Origin: Candidatus Moraniibacteriota bacterium
Lineage (GTDB): Bacteria > Patescibacteriota > Minisyncoccia > Moranbacterales > UBA1568
Length of the DNA stretch: 64,000 nt
Reading direction: 5' to 3'
Assembly (NCBI GenBank): GCA_016699385.1
Contig: CP064974.1
Coordinates: 339,042-403,041 of the forward strand
Part shown: piece after piece, positions 2,959 through 39,476 of the stretch
Layout of the letters: each line of letters starts with the position of its first letter
How positions within the stretch are numbered: the stretch's first letter is position 1
Program-made: the position numbers and the translations under genes
Notes under the pieces: generated by a model
What the model was told of the DNA's origin: nothing
Databases searched by the model: none
Seen by the model: only the letters and a program-made list of their open reading frames with translations

Positions 2959-4602
2959 ATGATTCGCATTACCGAGGGAGCGCTTTTTCTTGGCGCGTTC
3001 TCGCTCTCACTATTTTTCCTCTTCTTGGGAAACTCCGCTATCTTTCCACTTGATATGGCAGATTTCACATTTTTTGTGATGATTGCTTTTTTCTTCGCGC
3101 TCTATCGACCAGGATGGGCGTTTTTGGTCTTTCTCTCGCTTCTCCCATTCGAGATGATTAACCTTTCACCGGAAGCGCTTGCATTTTCTCTTCGACCCTA
3201 CCAGCTTCTTGGTGGCGTTCTCCTTCTCTCGATGTTGGCGCGTTTTATTGTTCATCGTCTTCCGTTTCCCGTCATGCGATTTCGATGGTTCGATATTGTG
3301 CCGATCGTATTCGGATTGGGAGGATTCCTCGCGATAGGTTTTGCCTCTGATGCTCTGAGTACCACAAAGCAGGCAGTGATTGCTCTTTCCTTTGTTGCAC
3401 TCTATTTTTTATCGCGGCAATTTCTGGGAGAGGCGCGTGATGTGCGGCGCGTGATGCCGTTTCTCGTGCTCTCATCAGTGTGTACAATGCTCTTTGCACT
3501 CTGGCAGAGTGTTCAGTTTACTGCGGGACGGATTTCATTTGAGGTAATGTCGGGGCGTCCGAATGCGTTTTTTGCTGAACCGGATTGGCTTGGGATGTTT
3601 CTGGTGCTGTCGGGGAGTGTCGCGCTTGGTCTCCTCTTTTATTATCTTGACCAACATCACGCTAAAGAGCCTATAGAAAATACCCCGTTTGCGGAGTCGT
3701 CATTTCTCAATCGGTCTATTTATGCGCTGAGCCACTATTCACGAACGCTCTTTCTGCTTTTTGTATTTTGTTTTCTCACACTTTCTTGGCTCGGGATTCT
3801 CCTTACCGTAGCACGTAGCGCTTGGGTTGGCTTTGCCTTTTCGACACTTCTTTTCTTGAAGCTCCTCTTAGTCGGGGGGCATTCATGGTCTTTTCGTAAT
3901 TGGCGATGGAAGCTTTTTGCTCAGGGATGCGTTGTCGCTGCAGTATCTTTTGCTGGGGCACTTATCATGGTGTGGGGATTCCAATTGACGACGTTTGATT
4001 TGACCAATCGAGCAGGGAGTACCACATCGGGACAACAAGAAATCACCGTATCTTGCGAAGCTCCAGCAACACTGCCAGAGCGCATTGAAAATGTCTCGGA
4101 ATTATCTTCGTATGGATGCCGGTTTATTCGGTTGGAAGAAATTGATGCAGAACAATCGGCAGGAAGGTTTGTGTCGACTGTTTCTCGTCCTGATCCAAGT
4201 ATTGAAGCGCGTCGTGTCATTGGACAAAAAACATTCGAAACACTCAAGGCACACTGGTTCTTTGGTATCGGGTGGGGAAATATTGGGAGTATTCTCGGAA
4301 TGGATAATCGAGGTGCAACACTCAATGCAAGCAATGCCTTCCTTGAGTCATGGCTTGGCGGGGGAATATTGAGCGCATTTGCTTTTCTTGTACTGTGGAT
4401 GCTCGTTCCGATATTTGCACTCCGAACATTTTTTGGTTCTGGGAGTGAATCCAATCAGGGCGTGTATCGTGCTATTGCTGTGTTTTTTCTTGTCTCCTGG
4501 ATTGGCTTTACCGTATTCAATGTTTTTAATTCCGGCATATTGCTGGGTTTTGTGTGGATCTGGCTGGGGAGTATCGGGATAATAGCAGGGAAGGGAAAAT
4601 AG
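2959..4602 (+). CDS. O-antigen ligase/Wzy-like polytopic membrane protein
   Basis: 547 aa with more than 10 predicted TM helices and a large periplasmic loop. The architecture is typical of the Wzy_C/O-antigen ligase family. Confidence 0.55.
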   Translation: MIRITEGALFLGAFSLSLFFLFLGNSAIFPLDMADFTFFVMIAFFFALYRPGWAFLVFLSLLPFEMINLSPEALAFSLRPYQLLGGVLLLSMLARFIVHRLPFPVMRFRWFDIVPIVFGLGGFLAIGFASDALSTTKQAVIALSFVALYFLSRQFLGEARDVRRVMPFLVLSSVCTMLFALWQSVQFTAGRISFEVMSGRPNAFFAEPDWLGMFLVLSGSVALGLLFYYLDQHHAKEPIENTPFAESSFLNRSIYALSHYSRTLFLLFVFCFLTLSWLGILLTVARSAWVGFAFSTLLFLKLLLVGGHSWSFRNWRWKLFAQGCVVAAVSFAGALIMVWGFQLTTFDLTNRAGSTTSGQQEITVSCEAPATLPERIENVSELSSYGCRFIRLEEIDAEQSAGRFVSTVSRPDPSIEARRVIGQKTFETLKAHWFFGIGWGNIGSILGMDNRGATLNASNAFLESWLGGGILSAFAFLVLWMLVPIFALRTFFGSGSESNQGVYRAIAVFFLVSWIGFTVFNVFNSGILLGFVWIWLGSIGIIAGKGK

Positions 4603-7881: not shown

Positions 7882-8676
7882 ATGGATACAAGTATCGCTC
7901 ATGCACTGCTTCTTGGAATCGTGCAGGGGCTTTCGGAATTTCTGCCCATATCGAGTTCGGGGCATCTGGTTATTCTCCCGTGGATTTTTGACTTCTCAGA
8001 TCCCGGGCTCTCTTTCGATGTGGCGCTTCATGCAGGGACGCTCATCGCGGTTCTCGGATACTTTTGGCGCGATTGGTGTAACATCTTTCATCTTCGAGAT
8101 GATATGCCGCAGTATCGCAGCGTGCCGAACTTATTACTCTTCTTGGTCGCAGCAACGGTTCCCGGAGCAATAGCGGGTGCACTTCTTGAAAAGCAAGCAG
8201 AGACTGTCTTTCGCGATCCACTTCTTATTGCGACGACGCTGTTCACCTTTGGTGCATTGCTTCTCTTGGCCGACAAACGGGGAAGCAAGGTGCGCTCTGT
8301 GGAGAAGATTACTTTGCGAGACGCGCTTGCTATCGGGTGTGCTCAGGCGCTCGCCATTGTGCCGGGTGTTTCGCGCTCGGGCATTACCATTACGGCGGCG
8401 CTTGCTCGTGGTATTGATCGCGCTTCGGCTGCTCGATTTTCCTTCCTACTCTCGACGCCGATTATTTGCGCAGCCCTCCTCGCAAATGCACGAGCGCTTT
8501 TTGCTGCCGGCATTACACTTCCATTTATTGTGGGCGTGCTGTCATCGGCAGTCTCCGGATATTTTGCCATAGCCTCTCTCATACGATTTGTTGAACGAGC
8601 AAGTTACCGCGTATTTTTCTGGTATCGTGCGGCGATTGCGCTCATTATTGTTTCTTTTATCTTTCTGCACGTATGA
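7882..8676 (+). CDS. uppP: Undecaprenyl-diphosphate phosphatase (UppP/BacA)
   Basis: 264 aa with 8 TM helices and BacA motifs (GISRSG, SSSGHL-like). Overlaps folD as ATGA. Confidence 0.88.
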   Translation: MDTSIAHALLLGIVQGLSEFLPISSSGHLVILPWIFDFSDPGLSFDVALHAGTLIAVLGYFWRDWCNIFHLRDDMPQYRSVPNLLLFLVAATVPGAIAGALLEKQAETVFRDPLLIATTLFTFGALLLLADKRGSKVRSVEKITLRDALAIGCAQALAIVPGVSRSGITITAALARGIDRASAARFSFLLSTPIICAALLANARALFAAGITLPFIVGVLSSAVSGYFAIASLIRFVERASYRVFFWYRAAIALIIVSFIFLHV

Positions 8677-35888: not shown

Positions 35889-36079
35889 AACTTGTTGTAT
35901 GAGCAAATCCTTCAAGGTTGCGCAATTGGGAGGCAAGGTGATATGAGCAAAAGCCAAAAGAGTTGCTGACGTTCATGGTTTGGGAGTGACGTGGATTATT
36001 CGCGATGTTGTTCTTGGTAACTGAAGCGTCATGGGAGGGAGGTACAATAAGAGAAGGCAAGAGAAGCTGTGTTTTTTCT

Positions 36080-36625
36080 ATGAATTATCGCCGAAAACAA
36101 TTGAGTGCAGAGGATATTGAGCCAGTACTGCTTCGAATACAGCCGTCTCCGAAATACGGTGGCATTGGAGTTTTTGCTCTCCGCGATATTAAAGGGGGTA
36201 CGATATTATGTGATGTTGAGAAAATTAGCGAGGAAGTTTTCGTCCCCTGGGAAGAATTTGCAAAGATAGATGCGGCTACGCGATCGTTTATGATTGATTT
36301 TTGTGCCGAGGACAAGGATGGTTTCTATAGCCCGATTGATCTGAACTATCTCACCATTCCGGGACACATGAATCATCACTGTGAGGCGAATGTAGGATGT
36401 GATGCGGACGATAACTTCGTCGCAATACGAGATATCAAGAGGGGAGAAGAAGTGTGTCTTGATTACGCCTTCGTTATATCCAACCCTGCCTATACTATGA
36501 AATGCGCATGTGATTCCAAGAAATGTCGAGGGATAGTCACAGGAAATGACTGGAAAAACCCCGCCTTCCGGAAAAAGAATTCCAATTTTCTCTCATCAAA
36601 TGTGAGGAAATTTGCAAACAAATAA
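36080..36625 (+). CDS. SET-domain protein (putative protein-lysine methyltransferase) with post-SET Cys cluster
   Basis: Contains NHHCEAN (NHSCxPN-type), EEVCLDY (ELxxDY-type) and the post-SET cluster CACDSKKC. The ORF opens at 36005, but the likely start is the ATG at 36080. Confidence 0.7.
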   Translation: MNYRRKQLSAEDIEPVLLRIQPSPKYGGIGVFALRDIKGGTILCDVEKISEEVFVPWEEFAKIDAATRSFMIDFCAEDKDGFYSPIDLNYLTIPGHMNHHCEANVGCDADDNFVAIRDIKRGEEVCLDYAFVISNPAYTMKCACDSKKCRGIVTGNDWKNPAFRKKNSNFLSSNVRKFANK

Positions 36626-38212: not shown

Positions 38213-38284
38213 GCCACCTTGCGGGATCGAACCGCAGACCTGCACGTTACGAGTGTGCCGCTCTACCAACTGAGCTAAGGTGGC
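38212..38284 (-). tRNA. tRNA-Thr (anticodon CGT)
   Basis: Reverse complement folds with acceptor GCCACCT/AGGTGGC, D-arm GCTC-AGTTGGTA-GAGC, anticodon loop CUCGUAA, and T-arm TGCGG-TTCGATC-CCGCA. Coordinates ±2 nt. Confidence 0.8.
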
Positions 38285-38386
38285 GCCTCCTTTTTTGATT
38301 ACAAGGCTCAGTGTAAGTGAAGCGTGGAGAAAAATCAAGGTTTAGGCGATATTTTCAGAAAAGAAGTTCTGTGGTATCTTAGTGGT

Positions 38387-39476
38387 ATGAATGATATTCG
38401 GAATGAGATGGAAACGATGACTCAGAAACTCCTGCATCTGCGGGACTCTCTTTGATGTGGCGGGGAAGTCACAAAGAATTGTTGAGCTGGAGAGAGTGTC
38501 GCAGGCGGAGAATTTCTGGGGGGATGCGCAGGAAGCGGGGCGCGTGATGAAAGAACTTGAGAGGCTTCGCGAGGAGCGCGCGCTTTTCGATCGACTCTCG
38601 AAAGAGCTCGACGATATCCGAGAGCTTTCTGCGATGGAACTCGAGGGGCAGGAAGCAGAGGATGTCGCGTCGCAGTATACGCGGGTTTCCGAGGAAATTG
38701 AGGCGCTCGAGTTCAAGACGCGTCTTGGTGGTCCATATGACAGTCACGATGCTATACTTGCTATCAAGAGTGGCGCGGGCGGTGTGGATGCACAAGACTG
38801 GGCGGAAATGCTCCTTCGCATGTATCTGCGATGGGCAGAACGTCGAGGATTTGTCGCGAGTGTTTTCGAAGAGTCGAGAGGAAACGAGGCGGGTATCAAG
38901 AGTGTGTCGGTCAAGATAGAAGGAGAATACGCATTTGGGTATCTTCGCAGTGAAATGGGTACCCATCGATTGGTCAGACTCTCTCCGTTTAATGCAGACA
39001 ATTTGCGGCAGACGTCGTTTGCCTCGGTGGAAGTTCTGCCGGTTCTCTCGGCGAAAGAGGGAACAGAGATAAAGCCGGAGGATCTCGAGGTGGATACCTA
39101 TCGATCGTCCGGTGCGGGCGGGCAAAATGTCAACAAGACCGAAACCGCTGTCCGTATCCGACATGTTCCGACGGGTATCGTGGTGTCGTGTCAGACCGAG
39201 CGTTCGCAATTGCAAAATCGTGAGAATGCTCTCACTATGCTTCGCGCCAAACTCGAACAGCTGAGACTCCAGGAGGAAGAAGATGAAAAACGCGCGCTTC
39301 GCGGTGAACAGAAAAGTGCCGACTTTGGAAGTCAGATTCGCTCTTATGTCTTGCATCCTTACACGTTGGTCAAGGATCACCGGACGAAATATGAAACACC
39401 GCAAGTGCACGAAGTTCTCGATGGCAAACTTGATGAATTTATGGAAGCCTTTCTTAAGACACAGAGTAGGGAATAA
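38387..39476 (+). CDS. prfB: Peptide chain release factor 2 with programmed +1 ribosomal frameshift
   Basis: ORF 1 (ATG 38387) encodes [22 protein letters not shown] and ends at the in-frame UGA in CTT TGA T (38450-38456). A +1 shift continues into the long RF2 ORF ([13 protein letters not shown]...), which carries the SPF tripeptide (RLSPFN) and GGQ (SGAGGQ). Confidence 0.85.

What the first reader, a model, noticed from the sequence alone, without database searches (positions are those of the whole stretch)
38387..38460. prfB carries the canonical programmed +1 frameshift site (CTT TGA T)
A 22-codon ORF starting at ATG 38387 ends at the in-frame UGA in the heptamer CTT TGA T. Shifting +1 at CTT continues straight into the conserved RF2 body. 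This is the textbook autoregulatory RF2 recoding site (E. coli: CUU UGA C), here with U after the stop and a weaker upstream SD-like element (CGGGAC). It matters for annotation, because the gene would otherwise be called N-terminally truncated. It also shows that UGA is read as a stop in this genome, i.e. not a UGA-recoding CPR lineage.
Basis: partly seen in the sequence, partly recalled or inferred. Interest (0 to 1): 0.55.

Follow-up and report, generated by a model that had tools for sequence, protein, structure and literature searches.

The report
RF2 frameshift site with upstream hairpin
This is the well-known self-regulating +1 frameshift in the release factor 2 gene, here in a candidate-phyla-radiation bacterium, but the usual ribosome-binding-like booster is replaced by a small conserved RNA hairpin and the base after the stop codon is U instead of C.

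Summary
ATG 38387 opens a 22-codon ORF that ends in CTT TGA T (38450-38456). Shifting +1 at CTT gives a 362-aa protein that is a full-length RF2 (TIGR00020 468.6 bits, cutoff 370). Its first 22 residues align with the N-termini of solved RF2 structures. The genome is a Candidatus Moraniibacteriota (CPR) MAG, and its public annotation of this gene is N-terminally wrong. 130 of about 160 relatives carry CTT TGA at the same junction.

Two details depart from the textbook site. First, the base after the stop is U. It is C in about 92% of relatives, and U occurs only in a shallow subclade at 88% identity or more.

The hairpin covaries across CPR relatives (0/500 shuffles reach the observed score). 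It also beats a synonymous-codon null (0/2000), is absent from relatives without the frameshift, and appeared in 10/10 homologues fetched afterwards.

The window shows no SD usage at start codons. The most likely reading is ordinary RF2 autoregulation with a hairpin acting in place of the SD:anti-SD duplex. This is a new variant of a known kind. The frameshift and the hairpin's effect are inferred, not measured.

The parts
38372..38380 (+). Extended -10-like motif TGgTATCTT, ending 6 nt before the ORF0 ATG. Inferred promoter of a leaderless or near-leaderless prfB mRNA.
   Evidence: TGnTAnnnT ends exactly 6 nt before the ATG in 10 of 15 relatives at 62-90% identity, and 7-10 nt before it in 3 more, while flanking sequence varies. 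There is no SD upstream of the ATG. This is inference only; the consensus promoter scan did not report it.
38387..38455 (+). ORF0 of prfB: 22 sense codons ([22 protein letters not shown]) plus the in-frame UGA.
   Evidence: The peptide aligns with residues 4-25 of B. subtilis RF2 and with E. coli RF2. It is conserved in relatives.
38430..38445 (+). Hairpin UCCUGC-AUCU-GCGGGA: 6 bp including one U.G pair, with a tetraloop. Its 3' end lies 1 nt before the E-site codon. Proposed 5' stimulator of the +1 shift.
   Evidence: -8.0 kcal/mol; present in both the MFE and centroid folds. Covariation: 86.8% of cells paired against 69.8 in shuffles, 24 double-sided changes against 7.5, both 0/500. RNAalifold finds the same helix. 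Synonymous-codon null 0/2000. Absent from most non-frameshifted relatives. 10/10 in out-of-sample homologues.
38447..38449 (+). Spacer (E-site) codon UCU.
   Evidence: UAU or UCU is the typical spacer codon at prfB sites according to PMC13245932.
38450..38456 (+). Shifty stop CUU UGA plus the +4 base U. The ribosome with peptidyl-tRNA-Leu on CUU re-pairs on UUU and then reads GAU.
   Evidence: CTT TGA is found at the homologous junction in 130 relatives. The +4 base is C in about 92%, T in about 6% and G in 2. +4 T occurs only in the window, L172 (90%) and L081 (88%) within the near clade.
38454..39476 (+). +1-frame body of prfB (residues 23-362) with stop TAA at 39474-39476.
   Evidence: The PCRF domain covers residues 28-214 and the RF-1 domain residues 226-332.
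38982..38990 (+). SPF tripeptide (residues 199-201), the RF2 stop-codon recognition motif for UGA/UAA.
   Evidence: aligned with SPF of solved RF2.
39117..39125 (+). GGQ motif (residues 244-246), the peptidyl-tRNA hydrolysis motif.
   Evidence: aligned with GGQ of solved RF2.

Best explanation
This is the prfB gene of a Candidatus Moraniibacteriota (CPR) bacterium, expressed through the classical RF2 autoregulatory +1 programmed frameshift.

Proposed mechanism:
1. Ribosomes start at AUG 38387, probably on a leaderless mRNA, and translate 22 codons.
2. They pause with CUU (38450-38452) in the P site and UGA in the A site.
3. If RF2 is plentiful, it terminates there and releases a 22-residue peptide.
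4. If RF2 is scarce, peptidyl-tRNA-Leu slips onto UUU and translation continues in the +1 frame (GAU GUG ...), giving the 362-aa RF2.

The difference from E. coli is the 5' stimulator. Instead of an SD-like sequence pairing with 16S rRNA, there is a 6-bp hairpin (38430-38445) ending one nucleotide before the E-site codon. It occupies the position of the E. coli SD:anti-SD helix. Its refolding behind the ribosome is proposed to favour the forward slip. The base after the stop is U, a stronger termination context than C, and a recent synonymous change in this sublineage.

Shown: the two-frame gene structure, RF2 identity, conservation of the site, and covariation of the hairpin and its link to the site.
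Inferred: that frameshifting occurs, that it is autoregulatory, and that the hairpin stimulates it.

My confidence by layer is about 0.95 for the frameshift site, 0.85 for the hairpin being a selected RNA element tied to it, and 0.55 for the hairpin being a stimulator.
For: Gene and site:
- Sequence and frames.
- RF2 identity: TIGR00020 468.6 bits (cutoff 370), PCRF and RF-1 domains, alignment to solved RF2 from residue 2.
- CTT TGA at the same junction in 130 relatives.
- Identical site in five independent assemblies.

Hairpin:
- In the MFE and centroid folds, -8.0 kcal/mol.
- Fixed-register pairing of the inner four pairs: 3.21 of 4, against 2.20 +/- 0.13 in column shuffles and 1.3-1.9 in slid registers.
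- Tool count: 86.8% paired against 69.8; 24 double-sided changes against 7.5; covariation 0.393 against 0.107; all 0/500. Slid registers give 0.07-0.13.
- RNAalifold predicts the same helix.
- With peptides fixed, synonymous resampling gives 1.96 +/- 0.14 pairs; 0/2000 reach the observed value. All Pro at stem codon 1 are CCG and all Arg at stem codon 4 are CGG.
- Hairpin pairing rises as anti-SD pairing weakens (rho 0.47, p 2.5e-7).
- Non-frameshifted relatives lack the hairpin, except apparent recent losses such as L003.
- 10/10 homologues fetched afterwards have 6/6 pairs.

SD independence:
- No SD signal at start codons in the window.
- The anti-SD motif is missing in about half of Parcubacteria (PMC9297842).

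Mechanistic precedent:
- Engineered E-site-adjacent hairpins stimulate +1 frameshifting at CUUUGA in a reconstituted 70S system (PMC6321510).
- A C-to-U change at the fourth position gave no detectable growth defect in P. fluorescens (PMC13245932).
Against: - There is no expression data, so frameshifting and its efficiency are not measured.
- The natural stem is only 6 bp. In the 70S experiments a 12-bp GC-rich hairpin reached about 60% of the SD effect, and a destabilised one did much less.
- With CUU in the P site, the 3' arm (-10 to -5) should lie inside or at the edge of the mRNA exit channel. Whether such a helix can form there is unproven.
- In most CPR sequences the 3' arm still contains GGGA or AGGA, so a residual SD function is not excluded.
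- The 16S 3' end of this genome is not in the window, so loss of the anti-SD is not shown for this organism.
- The correlation between hairpin and weak SD, and the enrichment of non-C +4 bases, are not corrected for phylogeny.
- +4 U should favour termination, which works against efficient frameshifting.
Confidence: 0.62

Rival explanations
1. Canonical SD-driven site. The G-rich 3' arm (GCGGGA) pairs weakly with the anti-SD and is the real stimulator. The hairpin is incidental, or only tunes access to that SD-like element.
For: GGGA or AGGA lies at about the position of the E. coli AGGGGG. Most CPR-type 3' arms are G-rich. A Thermomicrobiales-like group has both a hairpin and a strong GGGGUG.
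Against: Predicted anti-SD pairing is only -4.0 kcal/mol, which is the 'degenerate' boundary used by Naeem et al.. Stems whose 3' arms are not SD-like (GAGCGA, GAACGA, GGCGGA, GAAGGA) keep the pairing through compensatory changes in the 5' arm. Selection on the 5' arm codons (CCG, CTG, GCT, GTT) has no explanation under an SD-only model. There is no SD usage at starts in the window.
Confidence: 0.15
2. The hairpin is real but serves something other than frameshifting. Options are a transcription pause or terminator formed with the T-rich shift site, an mRNA stability element, or an element that slows ribosomes early in the ORF.
For: The terminator-pattern scan reports exactly this stem followed by CTCTCTTTGA. 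The cyanobacterial counterpart was called a 'pausing structure' (PMC12873609).
Against: The scan's two hits do not exceed the shuffle expectation of 1.4 +/- 1.5. The stem is short and the U-tract is interrupted. The hairpin keeps a fixed distance to CUU across lineages. It is missing from relatives that lack the frameshift, apart from apparent recent losses. That pattern ties it to recoding rather than to general mRNA features.
Confidence: 0.12
3. There is no frameshift. ORF0 is a separate small ORF and RF2 is made as an N-terminally shorter protein, either by termination-reinitiation at GUG 38457 (UGA U GUG) or from the start used in public annotation (339 or 346 aa).
For: GTG 38457 lies 1 nt after the stop and is what gene callers chose. 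The closest relatives L081 and L172 also have TGA T GTG.
Against: ORF0 is homologous to RF2 helix 1 and joins the body at exactly the conserved L-D junction. Relatives with the same site have no start codon there (GTT, TTA, CTT and others). The 346-aa annotation needs a non-canonical ATC start and reads seven residues (MCGTLFD) with no RF2 homology.
Confidence: 0.03
4. Assembly or sequencing error, or a pseudogene, produced an apparent frameshift.
For: Metagenome assemblies do contain indel errors.
Against: The sequence is identical in five independent assemblies. The site is conserved in 130 relatives. The interruption has the exact CTT TGA signature.
Confidence: 0.01

Closest known systems
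E. coli prfB autoregulatory +1 programmed frameshift (AGGGGG UAU CUU UGA C)
   Same: A short ORF0 (22 codons here against 25) homologous to the RF2 N-terminus. CUU UGA shifty stop. Junction Leu-Asp. UAU/UCU-type spacer codon. RF2-specific stop as sensor.
   Different: The +4 base is U, not C. There is no strong SD-like element (-4.0 kcal/mol). A covarying hairpin occupies that position. ORF0 appears to lack an SD and may be leaderless.
SD-less prfB frameshift sites (Winogradskyella and other Flavobacteriales; Planctomycetota, Firmicutes_A/B, Cyanobacteria), Naeem et al. 2024, PMC10798248
   Same: The frameshift site is retained while the SD element is degenerate. This shows that the mechanism can run without SD:anti-SD pairing.
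   Different: That study proposes no replacement stimulator and calls the loss puzzling. Patescibacteria are not discussed. Here a replacement candidate, the hairpin, is supported by covariation.
Cyanobacterial prfB 'pausing structure' K02836_upstream.h1_1, NAR 2026, PMC12873609
   Same: A conserved hairpin immediately 5' of CUU UGA in prfB. My cyanobacterial loci show it as CCUGGG-N3-5-CYCAGG ending at -6.
   Different: It has a different sequence, stem and loop length and lineage. Only one covarying pair was reported there. The CPR hairpin shows four varying pairs, each with changes on both sides. It sits in a lineage that appears not to use SD at all.
Engineered upstream refolding hairpins as mimics of the internal SD duplex, Huang, Cho and Chang 2018, PMC6321510
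   Same: A hairpin juxtaposed to the E site, upstream of CUUUGA. It stimulates +1 frameshifting on 70S ribosomes when RF2 is limiting.
   Different: Those were artificial 12-bp GC-rich stems in E. coli components. This one is a natural 6-bp stem of -8 kcal/mol, and its effect is untested.

Membership tests
Bacterial class I release factor RF2 (prfB, TIGR00020) | Whole-protein match above the curated cutoff, scoring better than RF1 | tested here: met
   TIGR00020 468.6 bits (cutoff 370). prfA models score 243 and 240 bits, below their cutoffs.
Bacterial class I release factor RF2 (prfB, TIGR00020) | SPF stop-codon recognition tripeptide and GGQ hydrolysis motif | tested here: met
   SPF at residues 199-201 (38982-38990). 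GGQ at residues 244-246 (39117-39125). Both aligned to solved RF2.
prfB programmed +1 frameshift site | RF2 coding sequence split over two frames, with a short ORF0 homologous to the RF2 N-terminus | tested here: met
   ORF0 residues 2-22 align to the N-termini of B. subtilis and E. coli RF2. No in-frame start can supply them.
prfB programmed +1 frameshift site | Shifty stop CUU UGA (or UAA) at the junction | tested here: met
   CTT TGA at 38450-38455, and the same in 130 relatives.
prfB programmed +1 frameshift site | C immediately after the stop (weak UGA-C context) | tested here: not met
   U at 38456. The base is C in about 92% of relatives. U is shared only with L172 and L081 in the near clade. 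This feature is conserved but not essential: a 4th-position U mutant grows normally in P. fluorescens.
prfB programmed +1 frameshift site | SD-like purine-rich element 3 nt upstream of CUU | tested here: inconclusive
   Only GGGA is present, with -4.0 kcal/mol against an assumed canonical anti-SD. The 16S 3' end of this genome is not available. SD loss is known in other clades.
prfB programmed +1 frameshift site | Spacer (E-site) codon of the UAU/UCU type | tested here: met
   UCU at 38447-38449 (criterion from PMC13245932).
prfB programmed +1 frameshift site | Frameshifting actually occurs and responds to RF2 level | not testable with these tools
   Needs a reporter assay, ribosome profiling or proteomics.
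E-site-adjacent upstream hairpin as +1 frameshift stimulator (as in PMC6321510) | Stable hairpin whose 3' end abuts the E-site codon of a CUUUGA site | tested here: met
   Stem at 38430-38445 ends 1 nt before UCU; -8.0 kcal/mol; in the MFE and centroid folds.
E-site-adjacent upstream hairpin as +1 frameshift stimulator (as in PMC6321510) | Evolutionary support for the helix (compensatory changes beyond protein constraint) | tested here: met
   Out-of-sample 10/10.
E-site-adjacent upstream hairpin as +1 frameshift stimulator (as in PMC6321510) | Disrupting the stem lowers +1 frameshifting and restoring it rescues | not testable with these tools
   Requires mutagenesis in a reporter or a cell-free system.
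Rfam RNA families | Match to any curated covariance model at the site | tested here: not met
   No family matches at 38280-38600 even at E <= 10, apart from a chance SCARNA2 hit with E = 2.1.

The most novel reading that the evidence does not exclude
In Parcubacteria-type CPR bacteria that have given up SD:anti-SD pairing, the prfB recoding signal has swapped its trans-acting stimulator (mRNA:16S duplex) for a cis hairpin lodged in the same place next to the E site. This would be a natural counterpart of the engineered 'SD mimic'. The same solution would have arisen in cyanobacteria and some Chloroflexota. It would explain the 'puzzling' retention of prfB frameshifting after SD loss, and perhaps why the +4 C constraint is relaxed in these lineages (8 of 9 non-C sites are hairpin-type).
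Probability: 0.45. Interest if true: 0.6.

Novelty: new variant of a known kind. Interest (0 to 1): 0.42.

Why it matters
There are three reasons.

**Annotation.** The public record of this genome gives a 346-aa RF2 with a false N-terminus. CPR MAG pipelines routinely truncate this gene.

**Mechanism.** prfB is the textbook +1 frameshift, and its SD-like stimulator is described as hyper-conserved. Recent work found that many clades have lost the SD and called this a paradox. A covarying hairpin at exactly that position is a concrete, testable answer, because:
- the lineage shows no SD usage;
- part of its wider group lacks the anti-SD;
- engineered hairpins in this position already work in vitro.

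**Genetic code.** The site confirms that this CPR lineage reads UGA as stop.

Tried and rejected
- **Rfam.** At gathering and at permissive thresholds it gave only tRNAs and one chance hit, so there is no known family for the hairpin.
- **Promoter scan.** The consensus scan found nothing upstream of ORF0. The extended -10 was seen only by comparing relatives.
- **Whole-segment fold.** The fold of 38387-38480 is not more stable than shuffles (z = -0.08). Thermodynamics alone would not have flagged the hairpin; covariation did.
- **Reinitiation at GUG 38457.** Considered and rejected, because the start codon is not conserved.
- **Downstream hairpin 38456-38473.** It is fully paired only in the three +4 U sequences and is not conserved beyond them. 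I do not count it as part of the element.
- **Genome-wide leaderless signal.** It is weak: TANNNT 5-9 nt upstream in 15% of starts against 5% of internal controls, n = 54, with crude start calls. I make no claim beyond prfB.
- **Baranov et al. 2002 (PMC1084053).** The paper is not held in the library. Its content is cited only through later papers.
- **16S 3' end.** It could not be checked, because there is no rRNA in the window.
- **Spurious sites.** Two apparent +4 T sites (L040, L134) had short, non-homologous ORF0s and were excluded. L088 was a tandem CTTTGACTTTGAT, and its first site has +4 C.

Full report
**1. Observation**

The sequence is as described. ATG 38387 opens ORF0, [22 protein letters not shown], which stops at TGA 38453-38455 within CTTTGAT (38450-38456). 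Skipping T38453 gives GAT GTG GCG..., which stays open to TAA 39474-39476.

In the body frame the nearest upstream stop is TGA 38418, and the first ATG/GTG/TTG is GTG 38457. No in-frame start can therefore provide the N-terminal helix.

CTTTGA as a hexamer is common: 57 copies in the window against 55 +/- 8 expected. What matters is its position.

**2. Identity**

The conceptual +1 product (362 aa) scores 468.6 bits on TIGR00020 prfB (cutoff 370). It falls below the cutoffs of the RF1 models and has PCRF and RF-1 domains.

It aligns to solved RF2 chains from query residue 2. For example, B. subtilis [33 protein letters not shown] aligns with [33 protein letters not shown]. The SPF motif (residues 199-201) and GGQ motif (residues 244-246) are present.

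**3. Organism, context and annotation**

The exact body protein is on record in a cluster named 'MAG: peptide chain release factor 2 [Candidatus Moraniibacteriota bacterium]', on a 1.11-Mb contig.

That cluster's 346-aa sequence starts MCGTLFD. This is the +1 frame read from ATC 38436. Other gene calls are 339 aa from GTG 38457. The public annotation therefore misses the real N-terminus.

The locus order is Ham1, SET-domain, NUDIX, CYTH, tRNA-Thr(-), prfB, ftsE, ftsX, tRNA-Gln.

UGA is a stop here. 15 of 54 long ORFs end in TGA, including a normal 226-aa ftsE.

**4. Conservation of the site**

I examined 160 related loci, 80 from genomes and 80 from metagenomes. Of these, 130 have CTT TGA at the homologous junction with an open ORF0 of at least 15 codons. 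The rest encode RF2 in one frame.

The base after the stop is C in about 92% of unique sites, T in 7 and G in 2.

Within the window's near clade, T is found only in the window itself, L172 (90% identity) and L081 (88%). Relatives at 87%, 83%, 82%, 79% and 74% have C.

The window's own site is identical in five independent assemblies. The +4 U is therefore real, recent and inherited. It is synonymous in the RF2 frame (GAC to GAU, Asp).

The literature treats +4 C as a conserved element that weakens termination. However, a C-to-U change gave no detectable growth defect in P. fluorescens.

**5. The upstream element is a hairpin**

I noticed that in CPR-type sites, the four codons before GAC NNN CTT TGA are self-complementary. 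I tested a fixed register with pairs -20/-5 to -15/-10 relative to CUU. In the window this is UCCUGC-AUCU-GCGGGA at 38430-38445.

The tests were as follows.

- **Fixed register.** I selected sites only by the invariant outer bases (TC...GA), which gave 29 unique sequences. The four inner pairs are formed 3.21 of 4 times on average. Column shuffles give 2.20 +/- 0.13 (maximum 2.72 in 5000). Slid registers give 1.3-1.9.
- **Tool count on the ungapped alignment A1.** 86.8% of cells are paired against 69.8 +/- 2.1. There are 24 double-sided changes against 7.5. The covariation score is 0.393 against 0.107. All are 0/500. Slid registers score 0.07-0.13.
- **Stem codon pairs.** They include CCG/CGG, CTG/CAG, CTG/CGG, GCT/AGC, GTT/AAC, CAG/CTG, ATC/GGT, CTT/AAG and CGC/GCG.
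- **Independent prediction.** RNAalifold predicts the same helix. It is in the window's MFE and centroid folds, at -8.0 kcal/mol.
- **Protein constraint.** It does not explain the pairing. With peptides fixed and synonymous codons resampled from each gene's own usage, the expectation is 1.96 +/- 0.14 pairs, and 0/2000 reach the observed value.
- **Link to recoding.** Relatives without the frameshift average 2.8 of 6 pairs. The exceptions look like recent losses. L003 reads CGT TTT GAT where others read CGT CTT TGA T, and it keeps a 6-bp stem.
- **Out of sample.** Ten homologues fetched after the hypothesis was formed (62-90% identity) all have 6/6 pairs. They are close to the window's clade, so they add little independent covariation.

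**6. Wider picture**

A flexible search finds a hairpin of -6 kcal/mol or stronger, ending 4-7 nt before CUU, at 27% of 121 unique sites. After shuffling the figure is 2.5%. These sites cluster in CPR, cyanobacteria and a Thermomicrobiales-like group.

Hairpin pairing increases as anti-SD pairing weakens (rho 0.47, p 2.5e-7). Eight of nine non-C +4 sites are hairpin-type (Fisher p = 1.7e-4). Neither statistic is corrected for phylogeny.

In the window there is no SD signal at starts. Mean predicted anti-SD pairing is -2.9 kcal/mol at starts against -4.2 at internal controls, and G is depleted at -13 to -6. Start calls were crude.

Tsurumaki et al. report that the anti-SD motif is detected in only 48% of Parcubacteria. 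I could not check this genome's 16S rRNA.

**7. Mechanism**

The best-supported reading is standard RF2 autoregulation: termination at CUU UGA competes with a +1 slip. A cis hairpin stands in for the SD:anti-SD helix next to the E site.

The precedent is experimental. E-site-adjacent hairpins stimulated +1 frameshifting at CUUUGA on 70S ribosomes when RF2 was absent. They were less effective than an SD, and the effect depended on stem stability.

The natural stem is much shorter than the engineered one, so the size of any effect is uncertain. The +4 U and the GAU codon in the new A site should, if anything, lower frameshifting and make the switch more sensitive to RF2. This last point is inference from E. 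coli data quoted.

**8. What is known**

The frameshift itself is textbook, and it is found in 64% of 12,753 genomes. SD loss at prfB sites is known and has been called puzzling. A hairpin 5' of CUU UGA was reported computationally for cyanobacteria in 2026, with one covarying pair.

I found no report for Patescibacteria. I also found no link drawn between such hairpins and SD or anti-SD loss. No Rfam family covers the element.

**9. Verdict**

The gene is an ordinary member of the prfB frameshift class. Its site architecture is a variant: a hairpin instead of an SD, U at +4, and probably a leaderless ORF0. That variant is worth a bench test.

Noticed in passing
window 38372-38389; L172, L081, L173, L174, L001, L175, L167, L168, L166 upstream of their ORF0: An extended -10-like TGnTAnnnT ends exactly 6 nt before the prfB ORF0 ATG in the window and in 9 further relatives (62-90% identity), and 7-10 nt before it in 3 more. 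Surrounding sequence varies. This suggests a leaderless or near-leaderless prfB mRNA.
   Followed up: partly
window, 25 nt upstream of 54 long ORFs (whole window): There is no Shine-Dalgarno signal at start codons. G is depleted at -13 to -6, and predicted anti-SD pairing is weaker than at internal control codons. Many starts are preceded by pyrimidine-rich tracts (for example cttttcttttcttctt ATG at 7882), with T at -1 in 63%. Start calls were crude (longest ORF).
   Followed up: partly
window 38456-38473: A second small hairpin, UGUGGC-GGGGAA-GUCACA, starts at the +4 U immediately after the stop. It is fully paired only in the three +4 U sequences (window, L172, L081) and not in relatives with +4 C. 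The +4 U is its first paired base, so the C-to-U change and this stem may be connected. Downstream structures attenuated +1 frameshifting in vitro.
   Followed up: partly
window 38436-39476; public protein P0001: The NCBI protein for this gene is 346 aa and starts MCGTLFD. This is the +1 frame read from a non-canonical ATC start. Other pipelines aa from GTG 38457. PGAP-style frameshift-corrected 361-362-aa products exist for some other Moranbacteria.
   Followed up: yes
L003 (Moraniibacteriota MAG JAOUHN010000024.1) around locus position 3040-3065; also L084: These are apparent recent losses of the frameshift. They read CGT TTT GAT T and CGT TTT AAT G where relatives read CGT CTT TGA T. The upstream hairpin is still intact (6 and 5 of 6 pairs). 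They are snapshots of how autoregulation is lost by a one-base deletion in the slippery run.
   Followed up: partly
L001 (CAZJZN010000007.1): One of the closer genome-collection relatives (82% RF2 identity, same hairpin and gene order) is labelled 'uncultured Bdellovibrionales'. Given the Moraniibacteriota affiliation of the window and of other relatives, this label looks like a misclassification.
   Followed up: no
L019, L048, L149, L016, L044 (Nitrolancea / Sphaerobacter / Thermomicrobiales-like), -24 to -4 before CUU: An 8-bp hairpin, CGCCUCGA-N5-UCGGGGUG (about -10 kcal/mol), overlaps a strong SD-like GGGGUG at the prfB site. Hairpin and SD therefore coexist in some Chloroflexota.
   Followed up: no
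window 36005-36625 (+): A 206-aa protein with a SET (lysine methyltransferase) domain lies in this CPR genome (Pfam E = 2e-11). This domain is uncommon in bacteria.
   Followed up: no
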